Source: an uncultured Bacteroidia bacterium (GTDB lineage: Bacteria > Bacteroidota > Bacteroidia > NS11-12g > UBA9320). From it: a DNA stretch of 64,000 nucleotides. This document shows, piece by piece, positions 3,076 through 23,297 of this stretch (position 1 is the stretch's first letter; each line of letters begins with the position of its first letter). The notes beneath the pieces are model-generated. The model saw only the letters and a list, made by a program, of their open reading frames with translations, searched no databases and was not told the origin of the DNA. Position numbers and translations under genes: made by a program. The stretch lies in assembly GCA_943846675.1 (NCBI GenBank), contig OX044357.1, forward strand, positions 1,546,010 through 1,610,009, given 5' to 3'.

Positions 3076-3409
3076 AGAATAGACTTGATTATCCCTAGCA
3101 GGTAGGGGGAATCAGATTGTTATCGAACTTTTAAATCTGAGGTCTACAATCTATTTTGAGCGTTTTAAATAACACAGTAAAGAAATAATATTAAAAGATG
3201 GTAATAGTTATGAGAACATGATTAGTCTAACTACATTCTCACTATATCGGTGGCGCTTGAACATTGAAGTAGTTTCCAAAGACAAATGTAAAGATTTAGT
3301 AACTTGCCATAGTTAATGCAACAGAAGCTGCAACAGAACCAGAGCGGAATTTAGTGTTACTATATCTATTAAAATTTGTTAGTTTGCGTCAATATTAACG
3401 TAAAATCCA

Positions 3410-6394
3410 ATGCAAAAAACGTACTTATTTATTTTACTAGCATCTTTATGCTTTCTTTCCTTTGAAACACAAGCAACCGTAATATTTGTAGACTATAGTT
3501 CTTCGGGTACTAATACTGGTGCATCCTGGACCAATGCTTACACGAGTCTTCAGTCTGCTGTTACTAATGCGGTTAGCGGAGATGAAGTATGGGTAGCCGC
3601 AGGCACATACATTCCATCTGCATATCCAGTAGGGCGAACATCTACAGATATTCGAGAGTATTCTTTTTACCTTGAGTCTGGTGTGGAGTACTACGGAGGA
3701 TTTGCAGGTACAGAAACACTAAGATCTCAACGCGATTATGCGAATAATGCCACCGTTTTGAGTGGAAATATTACAGGTAACAACTGTTACCATGTTTTGG
3801 TATCGGCTAATGAAAGCTCTGTGGTTTTAGACGGTTTTACCGTTACCGCTGGATATGCCAACGGTGGTACAAACGCAACAATAAATGGTCAATCAGGTTT
3901 TTGGACTAATAATGGAGGTGGTGTTTTCACGATTAACACCACGATGACCGTAGAGAATTGTATCATATCCAATAACACAGCTGGTTATGGTGGTGCAATT
4001 CGAGGTGTAGGGGGTACCACAACACTTACAAATTGTACACTTACTGGTAATACTGGGACTGCTCATGCGGGTGCAATAGATATGGTTGGTACTCTAGTTG
4101 TAAGTGGCTGCACATTTACCAGTAACAAGACAGCTACTAGCAGCAACGGAAATGGGGGAGCAATAAAAATTTCTGGGGGTGTTGCTACAATTTCAAATAC
4201 ATCATTTATAAGTAATGTAGGAAGAATCGGTGGTGCCATACATCATTACAGTTCGCAACTAACCATATCAACGTCTACCTTTAGTAATAATTCCGCAACA
4301 AATCATGGTGGAGCTTTATATGCTAGTCATACAGCATTTACTGTAACGAAGTGTGTTTTTGATGGAAATACTGCTACAAACAATGGTGGGGGTATCTCCA
4401 CAGGTTGGGGAGCTACTATGACTCTCAATAACTCTGTATTTAGTGAAAACACCTCTGGGTCAAGTGGAGGAGCTATCTCCAATGATATGATTAATGGTTC
4501 AGCAATCAATTGTACGTTTTATGCGAATACTGCAGCTGTTAGGGGTGGTGCTTATTCTTCAGTTTCAAACAGTATCAATGGCAAGAACTGTGTGTTTTTT
4601 GGAAACAAAAAGGGTACAAGCACGAACGTATCAGGTGCAGATACGTATGGTGGATCATTCACCTATTCTTTAACGCAAAGCAATAGCAACTTCAGCAGTG
4701 GAACAGGTATTGTAAACAATCAAGACCCATTATTCATCAATGCAAGTGACCCAGATGGAGCAGATAATGTATGGATGACGGCAGATGATGGATTAAGTTT
4801 TTTTAGCAATTCTCCTGCTTACGGTGTAGGAACAAGCTCAGGCGCTCCTTCTACCGATATTACGGGTGCTTCACGAGCGTCATCTCCATCTATGGGAGCC
4901 TATGAAGGTTTTTCTTACACGCGGTATTTAGTAGATATTGACGCTACGGGCACCGGTGCAGGTACAAGTTGGACTAATGCCTATACAGGGCTTCAAGACG
5001 CTATAGATGCATCCTCAGTAGGGGATGAAATATGGGTCGCAGAAGGTACATATATACCCAATGTAATTCCTCAATTTCAGGTTACATCTACCGACAATAG
5101 ACATAAAACATTTGCCATAAACAAAAATATAGCAATTTATGGTGGATTTGATGGTACTGAATCCGTCCTATCGCAAAGGGACGCTAAATTAAACATTACT
5201 GTATTAAGCGGAGATCTTGGAACTATTGGTACAGTATCAGATAATTGCTTCCATGTTGTGATGACTGCTAATTTAAATTCAACTGCAATCATCGATGGAT
5301 TTACAATTCAAGATGGTAATGCAAACGGAGGTAACACAACAGATCAGTATGGTGGTAGAAACTTTGCAAGAGAACTAGGAGGGGGAATTGCTAGCAATTT
5401 TTCTTCACCTACTCTTTCCAATCTAATCATCAAAAACAATAGGGCAAAAATTGGAGCAGGTGTCAGTAACAGCGTTTCCAGTTCATATCTTATTAATTTA
5501 ACTTTCGTAGACAATATTGCTAATGAAAAAGGAGGGGGAGTAGCTAATATAACTACTGGATCTCCAAGTATTATTAATTGTGTTTTTAGTGGGAACCTAG
5601 CTGATGATTTTGGTGGTGGTATATACTCTGAAAACTCACCTACAATAACCAATTGCACCTTTTTCAATAACAAAGCAACTACCACTTCACAAGGCGGTGG
5701 TGGTGTATATGCAATAAATGCAGGAACTACTACGGTATCAAATTGTATATTTTTTGGAAATAAAATAGGCTCATCTACGACTAATGTTGGTTCAGATATT
5801 AAAAACGGTACTGGTCATACAACCACTGTAGACTACAGTATGGTACAACTTGCTAGCGGAAGTTATACCTCTGGAAACACCAATGCCCTCACATCTGCAA
5901 CCAGTATGGTCTATAACCAAGACCCATTATTCAGCGGTCATGGTGGTCCAGATGGAGTAGATAATGTATGGATGACTGAGGATGACGGACTCAGATTAAA
6001 TAGTAATAGCCCTGCAGTAGATGCGGGACTTAGTAGTGCCATAAGTGGGTATTCTACAGATATTGTAGGTACTGCTCGTGTGGTGAATACTAACGTAAAT
6101 ATGGGAGCTTATGAGGTTCTTTGTTCTGAAACGACTAAAACAATAACAGCAAATGTATGCGATAGCTACACCTCTCCAAGTGGAAAGACTTGGATAACAA
6201 GCAACACGTATTCAGATACGATAGCAAACACTGCGGGTTGTGATAGTGTTATCACGGTGAACCTTACGGTTCGCGATAAGACGACTGAAACGATAACAGC
6301 AAATGTATGCGATAGCTATACCTCTCCAAGTGGAAAAACTTGGACAACAAGCAACACGTATTCAGATACCATTCCAAACGACTGCGGGTTGTGA
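3410..6394 (+). CDS. N-terminal ORF piece of the frameshifted giant beta-helix protein (signal peptide, two Pmp-like beta-helix blocks, 2-Cys modules)
   Basis: 994-aa ORF. It carries repeated GGAI / CTFTSN / CVFDGN / SVFSEN motifs and two copies of the block-ending motif NQDPLF...DGxDNVWMTxDDGL...MGAYE. It terminates at CGL*, where the paralog reads on as NTAGCDS. Confidence 0.7.
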   Translation: MQKTYLFILLASLCFLSFETQATVIFVDYSSSGTNTGASWTNAYTSLQSAVTNAVSGDEVWVAAGTYIPSAYPVGRTSTDIREYSFYLESGVEYYGGFAGTETLRSQRDYANNATVLSGNITGNNCYHVLVSANESSVVLDGFTVTAGYANGGTNATINGQSGFWTNNGGGVFTINTTMTVENCIISNNTAGYGGAIRGVGGTTTLTNCTLTGNTGTAHAGAIDMVGTLVVSGCTFTSNKTATSSNGNGGAIKISGGVATISNTSFISNVGRIGGAIHHYSSQLTISTSTFSNNSATNHGGALYASHTAFTVTKCVFDGNTATNNGGGISTGWGATMTLNNSVFSENTSGSSGGAISNDMINGSAINCTFYANTAAVRGGAYSSVSNSINGKNCVFFGNKKGTSTNVSGADTYGGSFTYSLTQSNSNFSSGTGIVNNQDPLFINASDPDGADNVWMTADDGLSFFSNSPAYGVGTSSGAPSTDITGASRASSPSMGAYEGFSYTRYLVDIDATGTGAGTSWTNAYTGLQDAIDASSVGDEIWVAEGTYIPNVIPQFQVTSTDNRHKTFAINKNIAIYGGFDGTESVLSQRDAKLNITVLSGDLGTIGTVSDNCFHVVMTANLNSTAIIDGFTIQDGNANGGNTTDQYGGRNFARELGGGIASNFSSPTLSNLIIKNNRAKIGAGVSNSVSSSYLINLTFVDNIANEKGGGVANITTGSPSIINCVFSGNLADDFGGGIYSENSPTITNCTFFNNKATTTSQGGGGVYAINAGTTTVSNCIFFGNKIGSSTTNVGSDIKNGTGHTTTVDYSMVQLASGSYTSGNTNALTSATSMVYNQDPLFSGHGGPDGVDNVWMTEDDGLRLNSNSPAVDAGLSSAISGYSTDIVGTARVVNTNVNMGAYEVLCSETTKTITANVCDSYTSPSGKTWITSNTYSDTIANTAGCDSVITVNLTVRDKTTETITANVCDSYTSPSGKTWTTSNTYSDTIPNDCGL

Positions 6395-6699
6395 TAGTGT
6401 TATCACGGTGAACCTTACGGTGAGATATAAAAGTTCCTTCTCGTTCGCAGAAACGGTATATGAAACCTTTACATCGCCAAGCGGAAAAACATGGACAAAT
6501 TCAGGCACATATTTAGACACAATACCTAATGACGTTAATTGTGACAGCATCATAACGGTCGATTTGACTGTAATCAACAAGTTATTTGTCGATACAGATG
6601 GTTCATCAGGAACAGGAAAATCATGGGGGACTTCAATGAAAACACCTAGATGACGCCATCAAAGTAGCTAATGCAACGGGCAATCATGCTGAAATATGG

Positions 6700-9048
6700 G
6701 TGCGCAAGGGCATGTATTATCCTGGCGGACAATCGAGCAGCAATCGAGATTCAGCGTTCCTAATTACCAATCCAAATGTTGAATTATTAGGAGGTTTTTC
6801 TGGAACAGAAACAGAGCCTGGTCAACGTAATCAAACGGCTAACCCAACCATATTGTGTGGTGATATTGGCAAAGCAAACGATTCCTCGGATAATGCATAT
6901 CACGTATTGATTATTGCACCAAACGGATCAGACATCGGACCTAATTTTAAACTAGATGGGTTAACCTTTAAAAACGGTAACGCTGACGGGAACTCAAAAT
7001 ACACCTACGAAAATAGAGATGTATATCAATCAGAGGGTGGCTCAATAGTTATTCTGGGTAGTGGTAAGTCTGGCCAAGAGATTAGTCCAACGATTACCAA
7101 TTGTCATTTTGAAGGCAACTACGGCGATTATGGCTCGATTTACATACGCGTGCCTAATGGTAAGTCTTTTGCAACCATTAGCCATTGTACGTTTAAAAAC
7201 AACCATTCAATTTATGGCGCTATCTTTAACGATGGTCAAGCAGGTGAAGTATCTCCAAACATTGTAAACTGTGCCTTTGATGGCAACACAAGTGCCACTT
7301 CGGGTGCAGCGATATACAACTATGGTTATGGAGGCAAATGCTCTCCTACAATCACAAGTTGTGTGTTTAACAGCAACAGTGCTAGTTCAATGGGAGGAGC
7401 AATCTATAACACGGGTTATGGTGGAACATCCAATCCAGTGATCACAAACGCTACCTTCCATGCAAACGCAGCTGGTTCTCATGCAGGAGCGATGTATAGC
7501 TTTGGTAACAGCGGAACATGCCAACCTAAGGTGACCAACTCTATCTTTTACAAAAACACAAAAGGTGGAGATGTGGACCATAAGTTTAGTGAGTTCTATA
7601 ACTATGCAGCGTATCCATACATAAAAAATAGTTCGATGCAACGTGCAAGCTCAACATACACAGCAAGCACATTCAACAGCTTAAACAGCGGAACAAACAA
7701 CATCTTCCAGACCAATCCAAACTTTGAGGCGATTGCCGATGGCAATGGTGCGGATGATGTTTGGAGAACAGGAGATGATGGATTGAGATTATCTTCCTCA
7801 AGTACCAACTTGTTAAACGGTGGAACCAATACAGGTGCCCCAACTGCGGATATCTTAGGAAATCAGCGTATGGGAACAACCGACATGGGTGCTTACGAGT
7901 ATGTCAACTGTGGCTTAAATGTTAAACTAGCTACTTCGGTTACCACTCATACAGCAACGCAAAGTGTTGTGGATGGTAATTTTGTATGCTACTGTAACAG
8001 CGACAATGAATTACTCTTGGCTCTTGACACCAATGGAACTGGGGCGGTGATTACACCTAGTCAGGTAAAACTATACATTGGCAATCCATCAACCTTGAGT
8101 TACAACTCTGCTGGCGGTATGATAACCAACACGGCTGGTGGTGTGATACTAGAAAGACGTTGGGATGTGGAACCAACGACTCAACCAACTTCACCAGTAA
8201 CGGTTCGTTACTTCTACACCAACGACAACTACGACGACATTGTAACGGCTATGGCTGGATTAACATCGCCTACAACCATTACTTCGCCAAGTCAACTACA
8301 GTTTTACAAGGTAACAGGCGGCTCATCGGCAACCTTCCCGAACCCACATGATACGGGTGTAACGGGTATTGTACTGACCAACGGAACAACAGCCAGCACA
8401 ACAGTGTGGGTTAATGGAACACATGGTGTACAAGACCATACAGCAGAATACCTAGTAAGCACGTTCTCCGGTGGTGGAGGCGGAGGCGGGGGTGGATCTA
8501 GCCCACTACCAGTGGAACTGATCCAGTTCGAAGCAAGCCCAGCAGCTAGTCATACAGCAGACCTTACATGGAAGACCGCATCAGAGCTAAACAACTCACA
8601 TTTTGTAGTTGAACGTAGCTATGATGGTAGAGACTTCCAGGCAGCAGCAATTGTTCAAGGAAACGGTACCACACAAAACGTGATTACCTACAACCACAAC
8701 GACAATACGATTGATCTAGCACAAAACACTGTGTTCTATCGATTACGTCAGGTGGACTTTGATGGCACCACGGCTTACTCACCAGTAAGACGAGTAGACT
8801 TTGAAGGCAGCATCATACCAAACAGCGTAACGCTTTATCCAAACCCAACAAAAGGAACGGTTACGGTTAGCTTTACAGACGATGAGGCTGAAAGTCATGC
8901 GATTAAAGTAATTGACAACCTCGGAAGAGAGCTGTACAAGCAAACCTTCGACGGACAAGCCATAGAGCTTGATTTGTCGAGCCAAGCAACGGGCATCTAC
9001 TTTATCATTTTAGATTCTGGTGAATCCTTTAAAGTGATTAAACAGTAG
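6700..9048 (+). CDS. C-terminal ORF piece of the same frameshifted gene (beta-helix block, FN3/Ig-like domain, T9SS sorting domain); about 99% identical to 15486..17834
   Basis: 782-aa translation is nearly identical to the last 782 aa of the 2133-aa paralog. It ends in a G9 linker plus LYPNPTKGTVTVSF...IYFIILDSGESFKVIKQ, a T9SS type-A CTD. Confidence 0.7.
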   Translation: MRKGMYYPGGQSSSNRDSAFLITNPNVELLGGFSGTETEPGQRNQTANPTILCGDIGKANDSSDNAYHVLIIAPNGSDIGPNFKLDGLTFKNGNADGNSKYTYENRDVYQSEGGSIVILGSGKSGQEISPTITNCHFEGNYGDYGSIYIRVPNGKSFATISHCTFKNNHSIYGAIFNDGQAGEVSPNIVNCAFDGNTSATSGAAIYNYGYGGKCSPTITSCVFNSNSASSMGGAIYNTGYGGTSNPVITNATFHANAAGSHAGAMYSFGNSGTCQPKVTNSIFYKNTKGGDVDHKFSEFYNYAAYPYIKNSSMQRASSTYTASTFNSLNSGTNNIFQTNPNFEAIADGNGADDVWRTGDDGLRLSSSSTNLLNGGTNTGAPTADILGNQRMGTTDMGAYEYVNCGLNVKLATSVTTHTATQSVVDGNFVCYCNSDNELLLALDTNGTGAVITPSQVKLYIGNPSTLSYNSAGGMITNTAGGVILERRWDVEPTTQPTSPVTVRYFYTNDNYDDIVTAMAGLTSPTTITSPSQLQFYKVTGGSSATFPNPHDTGVTGIVLTNGTTASTTVWVNGTHGVQDHTAEYLVSTFSGGGGGGGGGSSPLPVELIQFEASPAASHTADLTWKTASELNNSHFVVERSYDGRDFQAAAIVQGNGTTQNVITYNHNDNTIDLAQNTVFYRLRQVDFDGTTAYSPVRRVDFEGSIIPNSVTLYPNPTKGTVTVSFTDDEAESHAIKVIDNLGRELYKQTFDGQAIELDLSSQATGIYFIILDSGESFKVIKQ

Positions 9049-9091
9049 TGAGAAAGTATCGTATTACTACACAAATACAATAAGAGAAGGC

Positions 9092-9122
9092 CATTCGTTT
9101 TACGGATGGCTTTTTTGTTGTT
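9092..9122 (+). terminator. rho-independent terminator downstream of giant gene 1 (identical copy at 17878..17908)
   Basis: ggccattcgttttacggatggcc is a stem-loop with one U-G wobble, followed by tttttt, about 45 nt after the stop codon. Confidence 0.6.
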
Positions 9123-9319
9123 CAATTGATTTGAAAATATAAAAAGTGAAGTAAACAAGATATCGGGTTCTGTTGCATTAACTTCCCCTGAATCCAGAAG
9201 TAACCAAATTCGATGTTTATTAAGCTGCTAAAGACTTAAATGTAGCAAACCAGTTTGACTTTGAATCTTTGATTTGGTCCTTTCTGTTGATGCAATCTAA
9301 AGGACAGAACCATAAATAA

Positions 9320-9469
9320 ACTTTTTCGCTTAATGACATAACAGTTGACCATGTGATACCATTGAGTGATATAAGCGACTATGATTTAAAGAAAGGGGCA
9401 CACACATGGGACAACGTTAAAACGTGTTGCATGGGTTGTAATACCCTTAAAGGGACTGACTTTGTATAA
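9320..9469 (+). pseudogene. remnant C-terminal fragment of an HNH endonuclease (no start codon)
   Basis: Translation is TFSLNDITVDHVIPLSDISDYDLKKGAHTWDNVKTCCMGCNTLKGTDFV*. It keeps the HNH signature (DH..P, N, CxxCN..KG) but is only about 49 codons long, with an upstream in-frame stop and no ATG. Confidence 0.5.
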
Positions 9470-9936
9470 ATATACACCCCAGCCCCCATTTCAAACATCC
9501 ATAGACAAGGCATGAGAAACGCAGCAATCTGTTATTTACACACGTGCAAGTTCAAAAAAAAGCCAAGTAGAGAAAGTCCAGTAAAGTAAAGGTCTAAAAG
9601 CGGTTATTGTCGACTATATGTAACCACATTAAAAAACAACTCCTAGATTATTGAAGAATTGCTTTGCAATTTGAGTGGTAACTAACAAAGATAAACTGCC
9701 GCAAATCCCTTGACAGGTAAGGGTTCGTTGAAATTTTAGACACAAAAAACCCCGACTTGGTACAGCCAGGGAATTTCGTTTAGCTCCGAAGAGCTAGTAG
9801 GGGGAATCAGAACGTTATCGAACTTTTTTGACGGTACAAAGGCCCGGCTATAAAATGTTGGGTAACGTTTAGGTTGGTTAGCCATGCATATTAGCCCTGT
9901 AAGGTGCTATGCACTAATTAAATTGTTATTTCAACT

Positions 9937-10272
9937 TTAGTACATTAAATGCTTTTTAGAACTTTCCTTCCACTGTGCTTTGTAGCTTGCATCTACGAAG
10001 AAGATTTTCAAATCTGCTTTATAAGCTGCATCCACGAAATATATTTTCTTTTTTGCCTTGTGAGCTGCATCTGTAAAAAACCATCTACCATTGTTATCTT
10101 CAGCCATATATGCTGCATCAACTTTGTAAACCAAAAGATCAGCTTTATATGCTGCGTCCACAACATAAACTTTAACATCCGCTTTGTAATCAGCATCTAC
10201 AGAATATATTAACTGGGCTTTAACGCTTGCACTAGCAATTAAAAGGGTTGTAATTAGGATTAATTTTTTCAT
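9937..10272 (-). CDS. small secreted protein made of tandem YKAD decapeptide repeats
   Basis: 111 aa. Signal peptide MKKLILITTLLIASASVKAQ, then about 7 repeats of x[VF]Y[VF]VDA[AS]YKAD[VL]K (VDADYKADVKVYVVDAAYKADLLVYKVDAAYMAED...IYFVDAAYKADLKIFFVDASYKAQWK). The conserved 19-bp motif sits 13-31 nt upstream. Confidence 0.55.
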   Translation of the reverse strand: MKKLILITTLLIASASVKAQLIYSVDADYKADVKVYVVDAAYKADLLVYKVDAAYMAEDNNGRWFFTDAAHKAKKKIYFVDAAYKADLKIFFVDASYKAQWKESSKKHLMY

Positions 10273-10805
10273 ATTGTTTCTTTTGGGTTCTGTTGCATTA
10301 ACTAGGGCAATTTACTATATCTTTAGATTTGAAATTAAAAACGACTTTAATGTTCAACCGTCACAGATATCCAAAATCAATAATTCTTCAAGCTGTTTAC
10401 TTTAAACTAAGATTTACAAAACAATATAGTTCAAAGACCGATTCTGTCGGATAATAACTCAAATAACCCACTGGGTTTTTCTACTATTCAAACTCCCATT
10501 GTAGCGGTTCATTAGTTGCATGTGAAATGGTTTCAAGTTTTGGGAAAACATAAGGCATCAGTTTAATCAAAAGCTCTATTCTTTGCTTTGGTTCCAACTC
10601 TTCGAGTCTTTCCTCAATATTCTCCAATTCCTACACATATCCCTCTATATACCAAGCTATCAATATCTTAAGTTGATAGCTGCTAATTTTTAAAACTAAT
10701 AGACTTAATGCCCTTAAGACACTGTCCAATGTTACTCTTTGTTTTTACAATAAATTTCTGCTTTGCAGAGTCCGAGTGAACATTTTATATGGCGTTTCTT
10801 ATACT

Positions 10806-11336
10806 TCAGAAATTTAACTGACTCTCCCAAGGAGGATTGAATTCTTTTACTCTTTTCATAGTACAATTTGGTCCAATCCAAATAACATAAGATAGCCCCG
10901 CTTGTAATTGGTTTCTGGTTCTATTCTGCAAGTAAGAGATATCAAAAATAAAGCGGTCATAACTACCTTTAATCCCAATTTTAGGAAGAATAGTGTAACT
11001 TTTTGTGTTTTCTCGGCTTGTTCGCTCCAATTGAGCTCCTAATACAGGAGTAAAACGATGTGCAACGTAGGCATGGTGCCAAGCTAATACGTTAAACTCT
11101 CCATTTATAAAAAAAGTAGAGAAGTCTTTATCATTCGAAAAAAGCACACCAGTATTTACAGCATACCTTAGATGCGAAAGACTCATTTTTGGGCCTGTTT
11201 GAGAAAAAGTGTTATTACTTAAACCTATTTGGTGTGAAATACCAGCAGATAGCATTTCGGATTTAAGTATCTGAGCTTTCAATTGATTAGCTGATAAAAT
11301 TAAGCACGTTATCAATATTATTTTTCTTGGATTCAT
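10806..11336 (-). CDS. small outer-membrane beta-barrel-like protein (hypothetical)
   Basis: The most probable start is MNPRKIILITCLILSANQLKAQ (signal peptide), 27 nt inside the tracked ORF. The protein has alternating amphipathic segments, aromatic residues, and a C-terminal ...SQLNF ending in Phe, as in OM beta-barrels. Confidence 0.45.
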   Translation of the reverse strand: MNPRKIILITCLILSANQLKAQILKSEMLSAGISHQIGLSNNTFSQTGPKMSLSHLRYAVNTGVLFSNDKDFSTFFINGEFNVLAWHHAYVAHRFTPVLGAQLERTSRENTKSYTILPKIGIKGSYDRFIFDISYLQNRTRNQLQAGLSYVIWIGPNCTMKRVKEFNPPWESQLNF

Positions 11337-11432
11337 CCCTTTGGTAACGTTTAGCAAATACAATTATTGTTTTTTGTAAATTGCTGGTATTAAAAGAATA
11401 GAGTTTTTAATAAACATCAATTTTTTTTACTT

Positions 11433-14400
11433 TTGGATTTGAGATTTCAAAAATTCAAGTCGCAAAATTTAAGTAGTATTATGAAATCATTTTACGTAGC
11501 TCGGCTAACAGCTGTACTTTTTTCCATTATTTGTTTTTCTTTTTCAAACACCGTAGCACAGTCATCAGGTGTGGTCAGCACGCTCGCTGGTAGTGGTGCA
11601 TCTGGCTATACAGATGGTACAGGGACATCGGCTCAGTTTTCCTATCCTATAGGAGTAGCGGTCGATGGCGCTGGAAATGTGTATGTAGCGGATCAGAATA
11701 ACCACCGCATTCGAAAAATAACTACATCAGGTGTGGTCAGCACGCTCGCTGGTAGTGGTACATCTGGCAATGCAGATGGTACAGGGACATCGGCTCAGTT
11801 TAACAATCCTTATGGAGTAGCGGTCGATGGCGCTGGAAATGTGTATGTAGCGGATTACAATAACCACCGCATTCGAAAAATAACTGCATCAGGTGTGGTC
11901 AGCACGCTCGCTGGTAGTACTCAGGGCAATACAGATGGTACAGGGACATCGGCTCAGTTTAACTCTCCTAGAGGAGTAGCGGTCGATGGCGCTGGAAATG
12001 TGTATGTAGCGGATGAGTATAACCACCGCATTCGAAAAATAACTGCATCAGGTGTGGTCGGCACCCTCGCTGGTAGTGCATCTGGCTATACAGATGGTAC
12101 AGGGACATCGGCTAAGTTTAAAAATCCTTATGGAGTAGCGGTCGATGGCGCTGGAAATGTGTATGTAGCGGATAGGTCAAACCACCGCATTCGAAAAATA
12201 ACTACATCAGGTGTGGTCAGCACGCTCGCTGGTAGTTCTCAGGGCTATACAGATGGTACAGGGACATCGGCTCAGTTTTACTATCCTAGCGGAGTAGCGG
12301 TCGATAGCGCTGGAAATGTGTATGTAGCGGATAAGGATAACCACCGCATTCGAAAAATAACTACATCAGGTGTGGTCAGCACGCTCGCTGGTAGTGGTAC
12401 ATCTGGCTATGCAGATGGTACAGGGACATCGGCTAAGTTTAACTATCCTTTCGGAGTAGCGGTCGATGGCGCTGGAAATGTGTATGTAGCGGATTACGTT
12501 AACCACCGCATTCGAAAAATAGGTCAGGCAACTTGCACAACACCCACAACACCATCACTAAGTGCATCACCTGATTCAATATGTAATGGGAATTCCAGTA
12601 CCTTGACCGTATCTGGATCAAAGAATGCTGCTTCAACTTGGAAGGTATATTCAGGTGGATGTGGAACTGGATTAGTTGATTCAATTACTGGAACTGGGAC
12701 TACATTATCCGTGTCACCAACCTCTACAACGAACTATTATGTCAGAGAAGAAGGTTGTGTAACAGCTGGAAGTTGCGGAACGACTGTTGTTACAGTGACA
12801 GCAGCTTCTTATAACACTATTACGGTAACGGTATGCGATACGTACACCTCTCCAAGTGGCAGGCATACCTGGTTTGTAACAGGAATATATAAAGACACGA
12901 TTCCAAACGCAGCAGGTTGCGATAGTATTCTAACAATAAACTTAACGGTAATTGCAACACCAATAGTTACTGTCAGCACGCTCGCTGGTAGTACATATGG
13001 CTATACAGATGGTACAGGGACATCGGCTAAGTTTTACAATCCTACTGGAGTAGCGGTCGATGGCGCTGGAAATGTGTATGTAGCGGATCGGTATAACCAC
13101 CGCATTCGAAAAATAACTACATCAGGTGTGGTCAGCACGCTCGCTGGTAGTGGTACATCTGGCAATGCAGATGGTACAGGGACATCGGCTCAGTTTTCCT
13201 ATCCTAGCGGAGTAGCGGTCGATAGCGCTGGAAATGTGTTTGTAGCGGATCGCAATAACCACCGCATTCGAAAAATAACTGCATCAGGTGTGGTCAGCAC
13301 GCTCGCTGGTAGTACTCAGGGCTATACAGATGGTACAGGGACATCGGCTAAGTTTGACTCACCTACAGGAGTAGCGGTCGATGGCGCTGGAAATGTGTAT
13401 GTAGCGGATCTGTATAACCACCGCATTCGAAAAATAACTGCATCAGGTGTGGTCAGCACCCTCGCTGGTAGTGCATCTGGCTATACAGATGGTACAGGGA
13501 CATCGGCTAAGTTTAAAAATCCTACAGGAGTAGCGGTCGATGGCGCTGGAAATGTGTATGTAGCGGATTACAATAACCACGGCATTCGAAAAATAACTAC
13601 ATCAGGTGTGGTCAGCACGCTCGCTGGTATTGCATATGGCTATACAGATGGTACAGGGACATCGGCTAAGTTTAAAAATCCTTATGGAGTAGCGGTCGAT
13701 GGCGCTGGAAATGTGTATGTAGCGGATCGGGATAACCACCGCATTCGAAAAATAACTACATCAGGTGTGGTCAGCACGCTCGCTGGTAGTTCTCAGGGCT
13801 ATACAGATGGTACAGGGACATCGGCTCAGTTTGCCTATCCTTTCGGAGTAGCGGTCGATGGTACTGGAAATGTGTATGTAGCGGATGAGTCAAACCACCG
13901 CATTCGAAAAATAACGTTAAGTGCTGGTAGTGCTGAAACGACTGAAACGATAACAGCAAATGTATGCGATACGTACACCTCTCCAAGTGGCAGGCATACC
14001 TGGTTTGTAACAGGAATATATAAAGACACGATTCCAAACGCAGCAGGTTGCGATAGTATTCTAACAATAAACTTAACGGTAATTGCAACACCAATAGTTA
14101 CTGTCAGCACGCTCGCTGGTAGTACTCAGGGCAATACAGATGGTACAGGGACATCGGCTCAGTTTTCCTATCCTACAGGAGTAGCGGTCGATGGCGCTGG
14201 AAATGTGTATGTAGCGGATCAGGATAACCACCGCATTCGAAAAATAACTACATCAGGTGTGGTCAGCACGCTCGCTGGTAGTGGTACACCTGGCTATACA
14301 GATGGTACAGGGACATCGGCTAAGTTTTACTTACCTATCGGAATAGCGGTCGATGGCGCTGGAAATGTGTATGTAGCGGATAGGTCAAACCACCGCATTC

Positions 14401-17400
14401 GAAAAATAACTGCATCAGGTGTGGTCAGCACCCTCGCTGGTAGTACTCAGGGCTATGCAGATGGTACAGGGACATCGGCTAAGTTTAACGTTCCTTTCGG
14501 AGTAGCGGTCGATGGCGCTGGAAATGTGTATGTAGCGGATTACAATAACCACCGCATTCGAAAAATAACTACATCAGGTGTGGTCAGCACGCTCGCTGGT
14601 AGTACATATGGCTATACAGATGGTACAGGGACATCGGCTCAGTTTGCCTATCCTTATGGAGTAGCGGTCGATGGCGCTGGAAATGTGTATGTAGCGGATA
14701 GGTCAAACCACCGCATTCGAAAAATAACTGCATCAGGTGTGGTCAGCACGCTCGCTGGTAGTTCTCAGGGCTATACAGATGGTACAGGGACATCGGCTAA
14801 GTTTTACTATCCTAGCGGAGTAGCGGTCGATGGCGCTGGAAATGTGTATGTAGCGGATCGGTCAAACCACCGCATTCGAAAAATAACTGCATCAGGTGTG
14901 GTCAGCACCCTCGCTGGTAGTACATATGGCTATACAGATGGTACAGGGACATCGGCTAAGTTTTACTTACCTACAGGAGTAGCGGTCGATGGCGCTGGAA
15001 ATGTGTATGTAGCGGATTACGTTAACCACCGCATTCGAAAAATAACGTTAAGTGCTGGTAGTGCTGAAACAACAGAAACGATAACAGCAAATGTATGCGA
15101 TAGCTATACCTCTCCAAGTGGAAAAACTTGGACAACAAGCAACACGTATTCAGATACGATTCCAAACACTGCGGGTTGTGATAGTGTTATCACGGTGAAC
15201 CTTACGGTGAGATATAAAAGTTCCTTCTCGTTCGCAGAAACGGTATATGAAACCTTTACATCGCCAAGCGGAAAAACATGGACAAATTCAGGCACATATT
15301 TAGACACAATACCTAATGACGTTAATTGTGACAGCATCATAACGGTCGATTTGACTGTAATCAACAAGTTATTTGTCGATACAGATGGTTCATCAGGAAC
15401 AGGAAAATCATGGGGGACTTCAATGAAAAACCTAGATGACGCCATCAAAGTAGCTAATGCAACGGGCAATCATGCTGAAATATGGGTGCGCAAGGGCATG
15501 TATTATCCTGGCGGACAATCGAGCAGCAATCGAGATTCAGCGTTCCTAATTACCAATCCAAATGTTGAATTATTAGGAGGTTTTTCTGGAACAGAGACAG
15601 AGCCTGGTCAACGAAATCAAACGGCCAATCCAACCATATTGTGTGGAGATATCGGTACAACAAACGATTCCTCTGACAATGTATACCACGTATTGATTAT
15701 TGCACCAAACGGATCAGACATCGGACCTAATTTTAAACTAGATGGGTTAACCTTTAAAAACGGTAACGCTGACGGGAACTCAAAATACACCTACGAAAAT
15801 AGAGATGTATATCAATCAGAGGGTGGCTCAATAGTTATTCTGGGTAGTGGTAAGTCTGGTCAAGAGATTAGTCCAACGATTACCAATTGTCATTTTGAAG
15901 GAAATTATGGCGATTATGGCTCGATTTACATACGCGTGCCTAATGGTAAGTCTTTTGCAACCATTAGCCATTGTACGTTTAAAAACAACCATTCAATTTA
16001 TGGCGCTATCTTTAACGATGGTCAAGCAGGTGAAGTATCTCCAAACATTGTAAACTGTGCCTTTGATGGCAACACAAGTGCCACTTCGGGTGCAGCGATA
16101 TACAACTATGGTTATGGAGGCAAATGCTCTCCTACAATCACAAGTTGTGTGTTTAACAGCAACAGTGCTAGTTCAATGGGAGGAGCAATCTATAACACGG
16201 GTTATGGTGGAACATCCAATCCAGTGATCACAAACGCTACCTTCCATGCAAACGCAGCTGGTTCTCATGCAGGAGCGATGTATAGCTTTGGTAACAGCGG
16301 AACATGCCAACCTAAGGTGACCAACTCTATCTTTTACAAAAACACAAAAGGTGGAGATGATGACCATAAGTTTAGTGAGTTCTATAACTATGCAGCGTAT
16401 CCATACATAAAAAATAGTTCGATGCAACGTGCAAGCTCAACATACACAGCAAGCACATTCAACAGCTTAAATAGTGGAACAAACAACATCTTCCAGACCA
16501 ATCCAAACTTTGAGGCGATTGCCGATGGCAATGGTGCGGATGATGTTTGGAGAACAGGAGATGATGGATTGAGATTATCTTCCTCAAGTACCAACTTGTT
16601 AAACGGTGGAACCAATACAGGTGCCCCAACTGCGGATATCTTAGGAAATCAGCGTATGGGAACAACCGACATGGGTGCTTACGAGTATGTCAACTGTGGC
16701 TTAAATGTTAAACTAGCTACTTCGGTTACCACTCATACAGCAACGCAAAGTGTTGTGGATGGTAATTTTGTATGCTACTGTAACAGCGACAATGAATTAC
16801 TCTTGGCTCTTGACACCAATGGAACTGGGGCGGTGATTACACCTAGTCAGGTAAAACTATACATTGGCAATCCATCAACCTTGAGTTACAACTCTGCTGG
16901 CGGTATGATAACCAACACGGCTGGTGGTGTGATACTAGAAAGACGTTGGGATGTGGAACCAACGACTCAACCAACTTCACCAGTAACGGTTCGTTACTTC
17001 TACACCAACGACAACTACGACGACATTGTAACGGCTATGGCTGGATTAACATCGCCTACAACCATTACTTCGCCAAGTCAACTACAGTTTTACAAGGTAA
17101 CAGGCGGCTCATCGGCAACCTTCCCGAACCCACATGATACGGGTGTAACGGGTATTGTACTGACCAACGGAACAACAGCCAGCACAACAGTGTGGGTTAA
17201 TGGAACACATGGTGTACAAGACCATACAGCAGAATACCTAGTAAGCACGTTCTCCGGTGGTGGAGGCGGAGGCGGGGGTGGATCTAGCCCACTACCAGTG
17301 GAACTGATCCAGTTCGAAGCAAGCCCAGCAGCTAGTCATACAGCAGACCTTACATGGAAGACCGCATCAGAGCTAAACAACTCACATTTTGTAGTTGAAC

Positions 17401-17834
17401 GTAGCTATGATGGTAGAGACTTCCAGGCAGCAGCAATTGTTCAAGGAAACGGTACCACACAAAACGTGATTACCTACAACCACAACGACAATACGATTGA
17501 TCTAGCACAAAACACTGTGTTCTATCGATTACGTCAGGTGGACTTTGATGGCACCACGGCTTACTCACCAGTAAGACGAGTAGACTTTGAAGGCAGCATC
17601 ATACCAAACAGCGTAACGCTTTATCCAAACCCAACAAAAGGAACGGTTACGGTTAGCTTTACAGACGATGAGGCTGAAAGTCATGCGATTAAAGTAATTG
17701 ACAACCTCGGAAGAGAGCTGTACAAGCAAACCTTCGACGGACAAGCCATAGAGCTTGATTTGTCGAGCCAAGCAACGGGTATCTACTTTATCATTTTAGA
17801 TTCTGGTGAATCCTTTAAAGTGATTAAACAGTAG
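11433..17834 (+). CDS. giant T9SS-secreted surface protein: NHL-repeat arrays + 2-Cys modules + Pmp-like beta-helix + FN3/Ig-like + T9SS type-A CTD
   Basis: 2133 aa with a signal peptide. It has about 19 copies of a 47-aa NHL repeat (SGVVSTLAGS..GYTDGTGTSA.F..P.GVAVDGAGNVYVAD..NHRIRKIT) in three blocks separated by a Cys-rich Ig-like segment and 2-Cys TITANVCD[ST]YTSPSG modules. The C-terminal 930 aa match 6125..9048 apart from the two single-base insertions in that copy, and end in LYPNP...IYFIILD...KVIKQ. Confidence 0.85.
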   Translation: MDLRFQKFKSQNLSSIMKSFYVARLTAVLFSIICFSFSNTVAQSSGVVSTLAGSGASGYTDGTGTSAQFSYPIGVAVDGAGNVYVADQNNHRIRKITTSGVVSTLAGSGTSGNADGTGTSAQFNNPYGVAVDGAGNVYVADYNNHRIRKITASGVVSTLAGSTQGNTDGTGTSAQFNSPRGVAVDGAGNVYVADEYNHRIRKITASGVVGTLAGSASGYTDGTGTSAKFKNPYGVAVDGAGNVYVADRSNHRIRKITTSGVVSTLAGSSQGYTDGTGTSAQFYYPSGVAVDSAGNVYVADKDNHRIRKITTSGVVSTLAGSGTSGYADGTGTSAKFNYPFGVAVDGAGNVYVADYVNHRIRKIGQATCTTPTTPSLSASPDSICNGNSSTLTVSGSKNAASTWKVYSGGCGTGLVDSITGTGTTLSVSPTSTTNYYVREEGCVTAGSCGTTVVTVTAASYNTITVTVCDTYTSPSGRHTWFVTGIYKDTIPNAAGCDSILTINLTVIATPIVTVSTLAGSTYGYTDGTGTSAKFYNPTGVAVDGAGNVYVADRYNHRIRKITTSGVVSTLAGSGTSGNADGTGTSAQFSYPSGVAVDSAGNVFVADRNNHRIRKITASGVVSTLAGSTQGYTDGTGTSAKFDSPTGVAVDGAGNVYVADLYNHRIRKITASGVVSTLAGSASGYTDGTGTSAKFKNPTGVAVDGAGNVYVADYNNHGIRKITTSGVVSTLAGIAYGYTDGTGTSAKFKNPYGVAVDGAGNVYVADRDNHRIRKITTSGVVSTLAGSSQGYTDGTGTSAQFAYPFGVAVDGTGNVYVADESNHRIRKITLSAGSAETTETITANVCDTYTSPSGRHTWFVTGIYKDTIPNAAGCDSILTINLTVIATPIVTVSTLAGSTQGNTDGTGTSAQFSYPTGVAVDGAGNVYVADQDNHRIRKITTSGVVSTLAGSGTPGYTDGTGTSAKFYLPIGIAVDGAGNVYVADRSNHRIRKITASGVVSTLAGSTQGYADGTGTSAKFNVPFGVAVDGAGNVYVADYNNHRIRKITTSGVVSTLAGSTYGYTDGTGTSAQFAYPYGVAVDGAGNVYVADRSNHRIRKITASGVVSTLAGSSQGYTDGTGTSAKFYYPSGVAVDGAGNVYVADRSNHRIRKITASGVVSTLAGSTYGYTDGTGTSAKFYLPTGVAVDGAGNVYVADYVNHRIRKITLSAGSAETTETITANVCDSYTSPSGKTWTTSNTYSDTIPNTAGCDSVITVNLTVRYKSSFSFAETVYETFTSPSGKTWTNSGTYLDTIPNDVNCDSIITVDLTVINKLFVDTDGSSGTGKSWGTSMKNLDDAIKVANATGNHAEIWVRKGMYYPGGQSSSNRDSAFLITNPNVELLGGFSGTETEPGQRNQTANPTILCGDIGTTNDSSDNVYHVLIIAPNGSDIGPNFKLDGLTFKNGNADGNSKYTYENRDVYQSEGGSIVILGSGKSGQEISPTITNCHFEGNYGDYGSIYIRVPNGKSFATISHCTFKNNHSIYGAIFNDGQAGEVSPNIVNCAFDGNTSATSGAAIYNYGYGGKCSPTITSCVFNSNSASSMGGAIYNTGYGGTSNPVITNATFHANAAGSHAGAMYSFGNSGTCQPKVTNSIFYKNTKGGDDDHKFSEFYNYAAYPYIKNSSMQRASSTYTASTFNSLNSGTNNIFQTNPNFEAIADGNGADDVWRTGDDGLRLSSSSTNLLNGGTNTGAPTADILGNQRMGTTDMGAYEYVNCGLNVKLATSVTTHTATQSVVDGNFVCYCNSDNELLLALDTNGTGAVITPSQVKLYIGNPSTLSYNSAGGMITNTAGGVILERRWDVEPTTQPTSPVTVRYFYTNDNYDDIVTAMAGLTSPTTITSPSQLQFYKVTGGSSATFPNPHDTGVTGIVLTNGTTASTTVWVNGTHGVQDHTAEYLVSTFSGGGGGGGGGSSPLPVELIQFEASPAASHTADLTWKTASELNNSHFVVERSYDGRDFQAAAIVQGNGTTQNVITYNHNDNTIDLAQNTVFYRLRQVDFDGTTAYSPVRRVDFEGSIIPNSVTLYPNPTKGTVTVSFTDDEAESHAIKVIDNLGRELYKQTFDGQAIELDLSSQATGIYFIILDSGESFKVIKQ

Positions 17835-17877
17835 TGAGAAAGTATCGTATTACTACACAAATACAATAAGAGAAGGC

Positions 17878-19379: not shown

Positions 19380-19386
19380 AAGAATA

Positions 19387-23294: not shown

Positions 23295-23297
23295 TGA

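What the first reader, a model, noticed from the sequence alone, without database searches (positions are those of the whole stretch)
6125..9172. A ~3.05-kb cassette is shared at ~99% identity by two giant T9SS surface-protein genes (second copy 15065..17958)
The last ~2.9 kb of coding sequence plus ~120 bp of 3' UTR, including the terminator, is duplicated between the two genes. The N-terminal two-thirds of the proteins are unrelated (Pmp-like beta-helix versus NHL propeller arrays). Differences between the copies are not spread evenly. They cluster in a ~90-bp patch (6790..6880 versus 15575..15665, about 10 substitutions), plus one codon change near 7570 and two single-base indels. That mosaic is what gene conversion between paralogs would leave. 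The two copies are direct repeats 8.9 kb apart. Homologous recombination between them would delete gene 2's N-terminal region and fuse gene 1's N-terminus to an intact C-terminus. So the locus could act as a cassette-switching or antigenic-variation system for a surface adhesin, with a variable N-terminus on a constant C-terminus. As far as I know this has not been described for T9SS cargo.
Basis: seen in the sequence. Interest (0 to 1): 0.85.

Follow-up and report, generated by a model that had tools for sequence, protein, structure and literature searches.

The report
Tandem mobile elements carrying surface-protein genes
The repeated 2.9-kb block is the shared tail of two giant secreted-protein genes that ride on two neighbouring copies of a many-copy, tRNA-targeting mobile element, and recombination among the copies keeps the tails alike; it is not a dedicated two-copy switching device.

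Summary
The repeat is real: 6283..9169 versus 15071..17955, 2.89 kb, 99.1% identical. The differences are strongly clustered and mostly synonymous.

The context changes the interpretation. Each gene lies inside a copy of an integrative element.
- The left end of the element is the motif GTAGGGGGAATCAGA..GTTATCGAAC, at 3102 and at 9797.
- The right end is ..ATTCCGCTTTGGTAG at 20947, inside the 3' end of a large serine recombinase gene (19387-21015).
- In related genomes the same right end abuts tRNA-Glu, tRNA-Met or tRNA-Leu genes.
- A sister genome holds at least 7 copies, with different N-terminal modules on the same C-terminal cassette.

Element 1 in the window is truncated exactly where the repeat ends, at an IS6-type inverted repeat.

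Of the 23 A/B substitutions, 20 are alleles also found in other paralogous copies. Four-gamete and PHI-like tests show pervasive recombination among the copies. So gene conversion is supported, but among many copies rather than two.

The two single-base "indels" look like consensus errors, because gene 1 is an intact 1878-aa ORF in 5 of 10 other assemblies.

The arrangement is assembled independently in at least 8 samples, so it is not an artefact.

There is no evidence for a programmed switch. Recombination between T9SS cargo genes that share modules is already known in Porphyromonas gingivalis.

The parts
3102..3132 (+). Left-end motif of element 1 (GTAGGGGGAATCAGATTGTTATCGAACTTTT).
   Evidence: It is 93.5% identical to 9797-9827. 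The same motif lies upstream of the cargo genes in L001, L002, L010 and L014.
3410..9048 (+). Gene 1, a giant T9SS cargo gene. Its module order is two Pmp-like beta-helix modules, 2 linker units, then the cassette. In the window it is split into 3 ORFs by single-base insertions at 6380 and 6643.
   Evidence: It is an intact 1878-aa ORF in L030, L032, L034, L035 and L039.
6283..9169 (+). Cassette copy A: linker, linker-2, third beta-helix module, middle domain, T9SS sorting domain, then 121 nt of 3' sequence with a terminator hairpin at 9087-9117.
6810..6900 (+). Divergent patch of copy A, with 13 substitutions relative to 15596-15686. Ten are synonymous.
   Evidence: Most of the alleles are shared with other paralogous copies.
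9166..9796 (.). Spacer that begins with an IS6-type terminal inverted repeat (GGTTCTGTTGCATTAAC, 9166-9182). It marks where element 1 lost its ORF323 and recombinase genes.
   Evidence: The identical inverted repeats bound a complete 788-bp IS carrying a DDE_Tnp_IS240 transposase in L033 and L021. The spacer contains no remnant of the recombinase.
9797..9827 (+). Left-end motif of element 2.
   Evidence: Homology to L013, L010 and L004 starts at 9796/9797, each with a different left flank.
9937..10272 (-). DUF6150 gene, an accessory gene of the long form of the element.
   Evidence: It is present in L005, L010 and L013.
10806..11363 (-). 184-aa ORF of unknown function, an accessory gene of the long form of the element.
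11481..17834 (+). Gene 2, a giant T9SS cargo gene with three six-blade NHL arrays separated by linker units, followed by the cassette. The ATG at 11481 starts a signal-peptide-like sequence; the ORF opens at a TTG at 11433.
15071..17955 (+). Cassette copy B.
18044..19015 (+). ORF323, the conserved partner gene of the recombinase. Its N-terminus may be a MerR-like helix-turn-helix, but the evidence is weak.
   Evidence: Homologues at 40%, 33% and 24% identity lie directly upstream of distant recombinase homologues. It has no Pfam match. The predicted structure has pLDDT 57, and the MerR-type fold matches have E>0.1.
19011..19115 (.). Array of 21-nt tandem repeats (ATTAATTGATAATTAATTCAG, 5 units) between ORF323 and the recombinase operon.
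   Evidence: Its length varies between element copies. It holds overlapping sigma-70-like matches.
19236..19379 (+). 47-aa ORF immediately upstream of the recombinase gene.
   Evidence: It is called as a gene in all population contigs. Sequence.
19387..21015 (+). Large serine recombinase, 542 aa, with the catalytic motif YTRVSTKEQ. Its last 22 codons lie outside the element.
20905..20947 (+). Right end of element 2: a hairpin (20905-20941) followed by TGGTAG. An inverted copy of the end motif lies at 20793-20807, and a subterminal GTTATCGAACTTTT at 20831-20844.
   Evidence: Homology between element copies stops here, next to different flanks.
20944..20965 (-). GTAG plus an 18-nt fragment of the 3' part of tRNA-Glu. 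This is the integration site. It is also present in strains that lack element 2.
   Evidence: It is identical to the 3' part of the intact tRNA-Glu in L002, L045, L047 and L051. L021 and L023 rejoin the window at 20944. The window contains no complete tRNA gene.

Best explanation
The two giant genes are the cargo of two neighbouring copies of one family of integrative mobile elements.

A complete element runs in this order:
- a left-end motif;
- optionally two small genes on the opposite strand;
- one giant modular T9SS cargo gene;
- ORF323 and a 47-aa ORF;
- a large serine recombinase, whose reading frame runs across the right end of the element.

The recombinase inserts the element at the 3' end of tRNA genes, or at leftover tRNA 3' fragments. 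The element's last six bases (CTACCA on the tRNA strand) replace the end of the tRNA. New copies can land next to resident ones.

In the window, element 2 (9797-20947) is complete and lies next to a tRNA-Glu 3' fragment. Element 1 (from 3102) is older. It lost its ORF323 and recombinase genes at an IS6-type insertion-sequence end at 9166.

The 2.9-kb repeat is therefore the conserved 3' module of the element's cargo gene. A genome holds many nearly identical copies, so ordinary homologous recombination and gene conversion among them does two things. It keeps the cassette almost uniform, with patches of imported alleles. It also reshuffles the N-terminal modules at the repeated 150-nt linker units and the NHL units.

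Shown directly:
- the repeat;
- the element ends;
- the tRNA junctions in related loci;
- the copy number;
- presence or absence between strains;
- the recombination signal.

Inferred, not shown:
- that the recombinase is the enzyme that moves the element;
- that ORF323 assists it;
- that both genes are expressed.
For: The repeat and its clustering.

The recombinase:
- A large serine recombinase is encoded downstream of gene 2.

The right end of the element:
- The cassette, ORF323 and recombinase region is 99.4-99.7% identical in four complete copies in MAG CALSTB01 and 97.6% in L003, from a second species-level MAG. In every case the homology stops at ..CTTTGGTAG.
- That end overlaps tRNA-Glu, tRNA-Met (twice) and tRNA-Leu.
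- It overlaps tRNA-Glu three more times in other metagenomes, and in further cases 18-nt tRNA fragments.
- Members of the recombinase's 90%-identity cluster carry at least 7 different C-terminal tails encoded by the flanking DNA.

The left end of the element:
- The left-end motif occurs at 3102 and 9797, and upstream of every related cargo gene, next to different flanks.
- In L010 the right end is joined directly to a left-end motif, as in a tandem junction.

Mobility between genomes and strains:
- L003 and L013 carry the element at tRNA-Met at 97.5% identity, while the adjacent chromosomal DNA is only about 66% identical.
- Strains L021 and L023 lack element 2 and rejoin the window exactly at 20944.
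- Distant recombinase homologues (40-54% identity) keep the ORF323-like gene upstream. Two of the three examined (L042, L043) overlap tRNA-Met or tRNA-Glu at their 3' end. The third (L040) abuts only an 18-nt tRNA-Met 3' fragment. All carry other cargo.

Truncation of element 1:
- The A/B identity ends at an IS6-type inverted repeat. Variants L034 and L033 keep more of the B-type downstream sequence after gene 1.

Recombination among copies:
- 20 of the 23 A/B substitutions are alleles shared with other copies.
- The diagnostic alleles are distributed differently between positions A and B in different samples.
- 1438 of 2701 site pairs fail the four-gamete test, Rm is at least 14, and the PHI-like test gives P<0.0005.
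- N-terminal architectures differ between copies, and between strains at the same locus.
Against: - No excised circle or attP-type junction was found (0 matches), so current mobility is not demonstrated.
- In the window itself the element abuts only an 18-nt tRNA fragment. There is no intact tRNA, and it is unclear how that site arose.
- The strains without element 2 do not show a clean empty site. They carry a different IS-flanked segment with another giant T9SS gene.
- All comparison sequences are metagenome assemblies, many of them error-prone. Some apparent allele shuffling between copies could be chimeric consensus in repeats.
- The left junctions do not show an obvious displaced tRNA end, so the exact crossover point is not fixed.
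Confidence: 0.75

Rival explanations
1. This is the first reader's reading: a dedicated cassette-switching or antigenic-variation locus. Recombination between the two direct repeats deletes the N-terminus of gene 2 and places the N-terminus of gene 1 on an intact C-terminus, or conversion between the two copies varies the antigen.
For: - The direct repeats are long and similar enough for RecA-type recombination.
- Different N-terminal architectures occur on the same cassette, and at the same locus in different strains.
- L034 has the gene 1 cassette followed by ORF323.
- Conversion tracts appear to differ between samples.
Against: - The copies number at least 7 per genome and are dispersed at tRNA sites, so they are not a paired expression/donor locus.
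- Every copy is a full gene with its own 5' region.
- A deletion is irreversible, so it cannot act as a switch.
- The recombinase's end motifs occur only at the element ends and not at the cassette boundaries.
- The right boundary of copy A is an IS end.
- L034 is not the simple deletion product, because its recombinase is cut after 158 nt and is followed by unrelated genes.
Confidence: 0.1
2. A plain local segmental duplication followed by ordinary divergence, with no mobile element and no continuing exchange.
For: There are two copies only 8.8 kb apart in direct orientation, at 99.1% identity.
Against: - The same cassette occurs at many unlinked sites and in other species-level genomes.
- The differences are clustered and are alleles shared with other copies.
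- Four-gamete incompatibility is pervasive.
- Both genes are preceded by the same element-end motif.
Confidence: 0.05
3. An assembly artefact: the second copy, or the join between copy A and what follows it, was produced by a mis-resolved repeat.
For: - Several assemblies break exactly at the cassette edges: the start of AE_MB266 contig 2 corresponds to window 9173, the end of the ERZ10646527 contig to about 9170, and the start of L027 to 15121.
- Many contigs carry frameshifts.
- The two insertions in copy A look like merged alleles.
Against: - Eight independent assemblies join window 1..~12840 in the same order at 99-99.8% identity.
- Others join 9387..31015.
- The two copies have different, reproducible flanks.
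Confidence: 0.03

Closest known systems
Porphyromonas gingivalis kgp / rgpA / hagA modular adhesin genes
   Same: These are T9SS cargo genes that share near-identical C-terminal adhesin modules. Their domains combine modularly, and gene conversion has been proposed as a source of antigenic or functional variation. Homologous-recombination deletions occur at the 20-kb hagA-kgp locus (PMC5266723, PMC9328147).
   Different: The domains are unrelated: cleaved adhesin and DUF2436 domains there, against NHL, Pmp-like beta-helix and linker modules here. The gingipain genes are not reported to sit on recombinase-bearing integrative elements, and their copy number is 3 rather than 7 or more.
tRNA-targeting, cargo-carrying integrative elements that accumulate in tandem, such as the tycheposons of Prochlorococcus
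   Same: A site-specific recombinase gene sits at the end of the element. Insertion is next to tRNA genes. Partial tRNA copies lie at the junctions. New arrivals push older, decaying copies away from the tRNA, and the cargo varies (bioRxiv 10.1101/2020.12.28.424599).
   Different: Most tycheposons use tyrosine recombinases: 910 of 937, with the rest using large serine recombinases. They average 1-2 elements per genome and often carry replication genes. Here the enzyme is a large serine recombinase with a conserved ORF323 partner, and no replication genes were seen. At least three different tRNAs are used, there are at least 7 copies per genome, and the cargo is one giant surface-protein gene.
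Large serine recombinase elements: phage integrases such as TP901-1, SCCmec CcrA/B, and XisF of the fdxN element
   Same: The N-terminal resolvase catalytic domain carries the serine motif, followed by a recombinase domain and a Cys-rich zinc ribbon. The best profile matches are phrog_95 integrase, XisF and CcrB/A.
   Different: Scores fall far below the equivalog cut-offs of every named family, so this enzyme is a member of none of them. Those enzymes mostly use one specific non-tRNA site. Here several tRNA 3' ends are used, and the recombinase's own C-terminus is encoded across the junction.
Gene-conversion antigenic variation, as in Neisseria pilE/pilS and Borrelia vlsE (from general knowledge)
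   Same: Patchy import of diverged, mostly synonymous or tolerated sequence from paralogous copies into a surface-protein gene.
   Different: Those systems have one expression site plus promoterless partial cassettes, and it is the variable segment that is exchanged. Here all copies are complete genes, and the exchanged block is the constant part.

Membership tests
T9SS type A cargo protein | A C-terminal sorting domain (Pfam PF18962 / TIGR04183) at the extreme C-terminus. | tested here: met
   Both genes score above the cut-offs: PF18962 gives 45.4 and 46.9 bits against a cut-off of 27, and TIGR04183 gives 37.6 and 44.2 bits against 23.
T9SS type A cargo protein | An N-terminal Sec signal peptide. 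| tested here: inconclusive
   The sequences begin MQKTYLFILLASLCFLSFETQA and MKSFYVARLTAVLFSIICFSFSNTVAQ. They look like signal peptides, but no predictor was run.
Large serine recombinase | A resolvase-type catalytic domain with the nucleophilic serine in a YxRVSTxxQ motif. | tested here: met
   PF00239 matches with E=8.7e-26. The sequence reads AVMYTRVSTKEQ. Residues 23-173 match the catalytic domains of 3guv and TP901-1 integrase (3bvp).
Large serine recombinase | A C-terminal extension with a recombinase domain and a zinc ribbon, giving a total length of about 450-700 aa. | tested here: met
   PF07508 matches with E=4.5e-6. The protein is 542 aa, with CSKCSKP...YYKCNTKGC. The phrog_95 integrase profile is matched over residues 12-468.
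Site-specific integrative element (genomic island) at a tRNA gene | A recombinase gene at one end, and defined ends shared by copies that have different flanks. | tested here: met
Site-specific integrative element (genomic island) at a tRNA gene | Insertion at the 3' end of a tRNA gene, with the tRNA end restored by element sequence. | tested here: met
   Met in related loci, at tRNA-Glu, tRNA-Met and tRNA-Leu. In the window itself only a 22-nt 3' fragment of tRNA-Glu is present.
Site-specific integrative element (genomic island) at a tRNA gene | Presence/absence polymorphism or an empty site. | tested here: inconclusive
   L021 and L023 lack element 2 and rejoin the window exactly at 20944. 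However, they carry another IS-flanked segment in its place rather than a clean empty site.
Site-specific integrative element (genomic island) at a tRNA gene | An excised circular form or attP junction. | tested here: not met
   The joined-end pattern was not found in the JGI metagenome contigs. Only a tandem-type junction was seen, in L010. Raw reads could not be searched.
Gene-conversion antigenic variation system (pilE/pilS or vlsE type) | One expressed locus plus promoterless, partial silent cassettes. | tested here: not met
   All copies are full-length genes with a start codon, a signal-peptide-like N-terminus and an upstream region.
Gene-conversion antigenic variation system (pilE/pilS or vlsE type) | Segmental, non-reciprocal sequence import from paralogues. 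| tested here: met
   The differences are clustered and mostly synonymous, and they are alleles shared with other copies. Rm is at least 14. A caveat is possible chimeric consensus in the assemblies.
Recombinase-driven shufflon or invertible coding-segment switch (Rci/R64, Gin/Hin type) | Recombinase target sites inside the gene, at the borders of the exchanged coding segments. | tested here: not met
   The element-end motifs occur only at 3102, 9797 and 20793/20933, and not at 6283, 15071, 9169 or 17955. No inverted repeats of 100 nt or longer exist in the window.
P. gingivalis cleaved-adhesin-domain family (Kgp/RgpA/HagA) | Cleaved adhesin domains or DUF2436 domains. | tested here: not met
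   The Pfam scans list NHL, Chlam_PMP and Por_Secre_tail only. The resemblance is in mechanism and not in family membership.

The most novel reading that the evidence does not exclude
This family of serine-recombinase elements acts as a mobile platform for diversifying surface proteins. It spreads a giant T9SS adhesin-like gene to many tRNA sites in one genome and between species. Recombination among the dispersed copies then swaps N-terminal binding modules (NHL propellers, beta-helices, linker arrays) onto a constant secretion and anchoring tail. Co-occurring strains would in this way acquire different surface repertoires. A promiscuous large serine recombinase that targets tRNA 3' ends and has a conserved ORF323 partner would itself be an undescribed integration system in Bacteroidota.
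Probability: 0.35. Interest if true: 0.7.

Novelty: new variant of a known kind. Interest (0 to 1): 0.45.

Why it matters
The cassette on its own is ordinary. It reflects concerted evolution among paralogous, modular surface-protein genes, which is already known for T9SS cargo in P. gingivalis.

The carrier is what is worth recording. It is a compact integrative element (10-11 kb) whose mobility module is a large serine recombinase plus a conserved unknown partner gene.
- It uses the 3' ends of several tRNAs.
- It reaches at least 7 copies in one genome.
- It moves between species-level lineages.
- Its main cargo is a single giant secreted protein.

This explains how a large, fast-shuffling family of surface proteins can arise in an uncultured Bacteroidia lineage. 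It gives a concrete recombinase and att-site pair to test. It is also a warning for annotation: in long-read metagenome assemblies, such repeats cause contig breaks, false frameshifts and possibly chimeric consensus.

Tried and rejected
- An exact-sequence look-up of the gene 2 product found nothing on record. The window is therefore not one of the indexed assemblies.
- I searched the window for the rest of tRNA-Glu and for any tRNA, and found none.
- I looked for remnants of ORF323 or the recombinase in the 627-nt spacer 9170-9796 by blastn and tblastx, and found none.
- I searched the JGI metagenome contigs for the joined-end (circle or attP) sequence and got 0 matches.
- I tried to assign a function to ORF323. 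It has no Pfam, NCBIfam or PHROG match. The word-based homologue search returned only 5 proteins. The AlphaFold model has pLDDT 57.5. The top Foldseek matches are MerR-type regulators, but with E>0.1, and MerR_1 matches only 2 of 6 members at E=0.047. The MerR-like HTH is therefore a lead and not a result.
- The consensus terminator scan did not flag the hairpin downstream of the genes, although the sequence shows an 8-bp stem followed by TTTTTT.
- I considered that the mobile unit might be only the cassette plus ORF323 plus the recombinase, inserting into linker-coding DNA. I rejected this because the left edges of cassette homology differ between copies (15071, 15091, 15951, 13930), and a conserved end motif lies upstream of the whole genes.
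- I considered that the two frameshifts make gene 1 a pseudogene or silent donor. I rejected this as unlikely. They are private to this assembly and sit at sites polymorphic among paralogues: GAC against AC or GA, and CA against A or C. Other assemblies have an intact ORF, or frameshifts elsewhere.

Full report
**1. The observation**

A local alignment gives one collinear block, 6287..9169 against 15075..17955. A MAFFT alignment of the left edge moves the start to about 6283 / 15071. The block has 23 substitutions and two one-base insertions in copy A (G at 6380, C at 6643), which is 99.1% identity, and the start-to-start spacing is 8786-8788 nt.

Thirteen substitutions fall in 6810..6900. Smaller groups lie at 7074-7122, 7574/5 and 7686/9, and only one lies in the last 1.48 kb. 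No random placement out of 20,000 puts 13 substitutions into 100 nt, and 18 of the 23 are synonymous.

The block ends 121 nt after the stop codon, past a hairpin followed by a T-run. No other copy and no long inverted repeat exist in the window.

**2. The genes**

Gene 2 (11433/11481..17834, 2133/2117 aa) has 18 NHL repeats in three six-blade arrays. Gene 1 has two Pmp-like beta-helix modules with choice-of-anchor-Q domains. Both end in a T9SS type A sorting domain.

The shared part consists of two linker units of about 50 aa, a third beta-helix module, a 198-aa middle domain and a 183-aa tail with the sorting domain.

The same linker unit (..ETITANVCD[ST]YTSPSG..CDS[VI][IL]T[VI]NLTV) also occurs inside the unshared parts of both genes. 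The left edge of the repeat therefore lies in sequence that both genes already had in common.

**3. The two indels are probably not real**

In the window they split gene 1 into three ORFs. In ten other assemblies of the same locus, gene 1 is an intact 1878-aa ORF in five. In the other five it is broken at other, mutually different positions. None of these assemblies, and none of the paralogous copies, has either insertion.

Both insertions sit at sites that are polymorphic among copies, and both read like a merge of the two alleles:
- GAC, where other copies have AC or GA;
- CA, where other copies have A or C.

**4. What lies around the repeat**

Downstream of gene 2 lie:
- a 323-aa ORF with no family match;
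- an array of 21-nt repeats;
- a 47-aa ORF;
- a 542-aa large serine recombinase (Resolvase and Recombinase domains, YTRVSTKEQ motif, Cys-rich ribbon), whose best profile matches are phrog_95 integrase, XisF and CcrB/A, all far below the equivalog cut-offs.

A scan of species-representative genomes with the cassette protein found seven loci in one MAG (CALSTB01, 'uncultured Bacteroidia AE_MB266') and one in another MAG (JBLHHI01). All are at 96-100% protein identity.

In most of these loci the similarity to the window continues through ORF323 and the recombinase at 99.4-99.7% and stops at the same base..ATTCCGCTTTGGTAG (window 20947). That is 68 nt before the recombinase stop codon.

Beyond that base the sequences are unrelated to each other, but they are tRNA genes on the opposite strand:
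- tRNA-Glu in L002;
- tRNA-Met in L013 and L003;
- tRNA-Leu in L005.

In each case the last six bases of the tRNA are supplied by the element.

Nine contigs from other metagenomes contain the 19-nt end sequence, and eight of them carry the identical 39-nt right end. It lies next to intact tRNA-Glu in three, next to 18-nt tRNA fragments all ending at ..GAATCGAAC in three, and next to other DNA in two.

Members of the recombinase's 90%-identity cluster carry at least seven different C-terminal tails after ..TYSALV. This is expected if the end of the ORF is supplied by the flank.

In the window the flank is GTAG plus 18 nt identical to the 3' part of that tRNA-Glu. Unrelated DNA and ruvB follow, and the window holds no complete tRNA.

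**5. The other end of the element**

Similarity between copies starts at window 9796/9797 against three different left flanks. The sequence there is GTAGGGGGAATCAGAACGTTATCGAAC. It recurs at window 3102, 308 nt upstream of gene 1, and upstream of the cargo genes of L001, L002, L010 and L014.

The joined ends would read ATTCC-GCTTTGGTAGGG-GGAAT, which resembles the 3' end of a tRNA. In L010 a right end is in fact followed directly by a left-end motif.

The window therefore holds two elements:
- Element 2, 9797-20947, is complete. It contains DUF6150 and a 184-aa ORF on the minus strand, then gene 2, ORF323, the 47-aa ORF and the recombinase.
- Element 1, from 3102, carries gene 1 and has lost everything after 9165-9169.

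At that point the sequence becomes GGTTCTGTTGCATTAAC. This is identical to the inverted repeats of a complete 788-bp IS with an IS6/IS240-type transposase seen in other strains. Two strain variants keep more of element 1. L033 has 117 nt more of the B-type downstream sequence before the IS. L034 has ORF323 and the first 158 nt of the recombinase gene.

**6. Evidence of mobility**

- L003 and L013 both have the element at tRNA-Met at 97.5% identity, while the syntenic DNA beyond the tRNA is only about 66% identical.
- Copies at 91-95% identity sit at tRNA-Glu in other metagenomes.
- Within the species of the window (RuvB and the DUF1573 protein are 100% identical), strains L021 and L023 lack element 2 and rejoin the window exactly at 20944. 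They carry a different IS-flanked segment with a 2213-aa FG-GAP/HYR T9SS gene in its place.
- Recombinase homologues at 40-54% identity all keep an ORF323 homologue (24-40% identity) directly upstream and carry other cargo. L040 carries copper-resistance genes and abuts an 18-nt tRNA-Met fragment. L042 carries an S8 peptidase and a PKD protein, both with T9SS sorting domains, and its recombinase gene overlaps tRNA-Met. L043 carries a multicopper oxidase and its recombinase gene overlaps tRNA-Glu.
- I did not find a circular junction, so current activity is inferred and not shown.

**7. Recombination among copies**

At 20 of the 23 sites that differ between A and B, both alleles occur in other copies, in different combinations along the cassette. 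Among nine copies, 74 informative sites give 1438 incompatible pairs out of 2701 by the four-gamete test, at least 14 recombination events, and a PHI-like statistic below all 2000 permutations.

In other samples the diagnostic alleles are distributed differently between positions A and B. L033 and L039 carry mostly B-type alleles in the patch of copy A. L026 and L027 carry A-type alleles in the 3' half of the patch of copy B.

N-terminal architectures differ between copies: one to three NHL arrays, zero to two beta-helix modules, and 1 to 11 linker units. They also differ between strains at the ruvB-adjacent locus itself.

One caveat applies. These are metagenome consensus sequences with visible indel errors, and chimeric consensus inside repeats could mimic some of the shuffling between samples. 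The within-genome mosaic across seven loci of one MAG is less exposed to this problem, but it is not immune.

**8. Not an assembly artefact**

Eight assemblies join window 1..~12840 in the same order, and others join 9387..31015. Several assemblies break exactly at cassette edges. That is what a multi-copy 2.9-kb repeat does to assemblers.

**9. Mechanism, and comparison with known systems**

The most likely history has four steps:
- An element integrated at a tRNA-Glu 3' sequence upstream of ruvB.
- A second element arrived at the same site and pushed the first away from it.
- An IS6-type element removed the mobility genes of the older copy.
- Homologous recombination with the many other copies has kept the cassettes nearly identical, while importing patches and exchanging N-terminal modules.

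The resemblances to known systems are as follows:
- It works like tRNA-targeting cargo elements that pile up in tandem, such as tycheposons (bioRxiv 10.1101/2020.12.28.424599). It differs in its recombinase type, its partner gene, its cargo and its copy number.
- For the genes themselves it works like the kgp/rgpA/hagA modular adhesin genes of P. gingivalis (PMC5266723, PMC9328147), but without homology to them.
- It fails the defining tests of a silent-cassette antigenic-variation system and of a recombinase-driven shufflon.

Two searches of the held paper library for serine-recombinase, tRNA-targeting elements in Bacteroidota returned no description of this family. This is a limited search and does not prove novelty.

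**10. Verdict**

The gene-conversion reading is right in kind but too narrow. The cassette-switch idea and the claim of novelty for T9SS cargo are not supported. The more interesting object is the carrier element.

Noticed in passing
window 19011-19115: Five tandem 21-nt units (ATTAATTGATAATTAATTCAG / ..AATAAACTCGG) lie between ORF323 and the 47-aa ORF and recombinase operon. The array length differs between element copies: the alignments to L003, L014 and L020 break and overlap at 19053-19062. The array holds three overlapping sigma-70-like matches, so it may be an operator or promoter region of the recombinase operon.
   Followed up: partly
L021 1-9601, L023 1-9601, L033 1-3673: Some strains of the same species carry a different segment of about 9.5 kb in place of element 2. 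It holds a 788-bp IS6/IS240-type IS, a 216-aa ORF, a 2213-aa FG-GAP/HYR T9SS cargo gene on the opposite strand, and an rve_3 transposase fragment. The ruvB-proximal site is therefore a hot spot where alternative giant surface-protein genes are exchanged.
   Followed up: partly
window 9166-9182, 10286-10302, 3312-3328 (minus strand): Solo copies of the IS6-type inverted repeat GGTTCTGTTGCATTAAC occur in the window. Two of them lie just upstream of DUF6150 (14 nt) and of gene 1 (82 nt), within a shared segment of about 98 nt (3244-3341 against 10370-10275, 81% identical). This may be an old IS end now serving as an upstream region.
   Followed up: partly
window 20948-21015: The last 22 codons of the recombinase are encoded by the flanking tRNA fragment and host DNA. 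Each insertion site therefore gives the enzyme a different C-terminal tail, and at least 7 variants occur in public data.
   Followed up: yes
window 20793-20807, 20831-20844, 3119-3132 and 9814-9827: Two kinds of subterminal repeat are present. An inverted copy of the right-end motif (CTACCCAAGCGGAAT) lies 126 nt inside the right end. The 14-mer GTTATCGAACTTTT is present once near the right end and in both left ends. These are candidate recombinase or accessory-protein binding sites.
   Followed up: no
window 2990-3055 and 21085-21215: Similar low-complexity AT-rich repeats (AATAGC / TTAGG units, and a shared 12-mer ATTAGGAGTTAG at 3028 and 21103) flank the whole two-element island on both sides. 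They may be the two halves of one original intergenic region.
   Followed up: no
L040 11559-12861, L041, L052: Downstream of a related serine-recombinase element, an 18-nt tRNA-Met fragment is followed by a tyrosine-integrase gene. A second, unrelated integrative element appears to have used the same tRNA and displaced its 3' fragment. This may explain why several right ends abut only 18-nt tRNA fragments ending at GAATCGAAC.
   Followed up: partly
window 11553-15057: The NHL region of gene 2 is a nested DNA repeat. Units of 159/162 nt are 85-94% identical within arrays, and whole six-blade arrays repeat at about 1.13 kb. This is a further substrate for copy-number change by unequal recombination.
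   Followed up: partly
L013 2184-5867 and L014 97-3974: A 3.7-kb sequence is repeated at 99.6-99.9% identity next to two element copies in MAG CALSTB01. Its ends are weakly similar (76-78%) to parts of the window spacer 9170-9667. It is probably another mobile element, and it was not characterised.
   Followed up: no
window 30191-33748 (minus strand): Another T9SS cargo gene lies in the window: a 1185-aa M4 peptidase with PKD domains and a Por_Secre_tail. It is split by frameshifts in some population assemblies (L022, L028), which again illustrates the indel errors of these assemblies.
   Followed up: no
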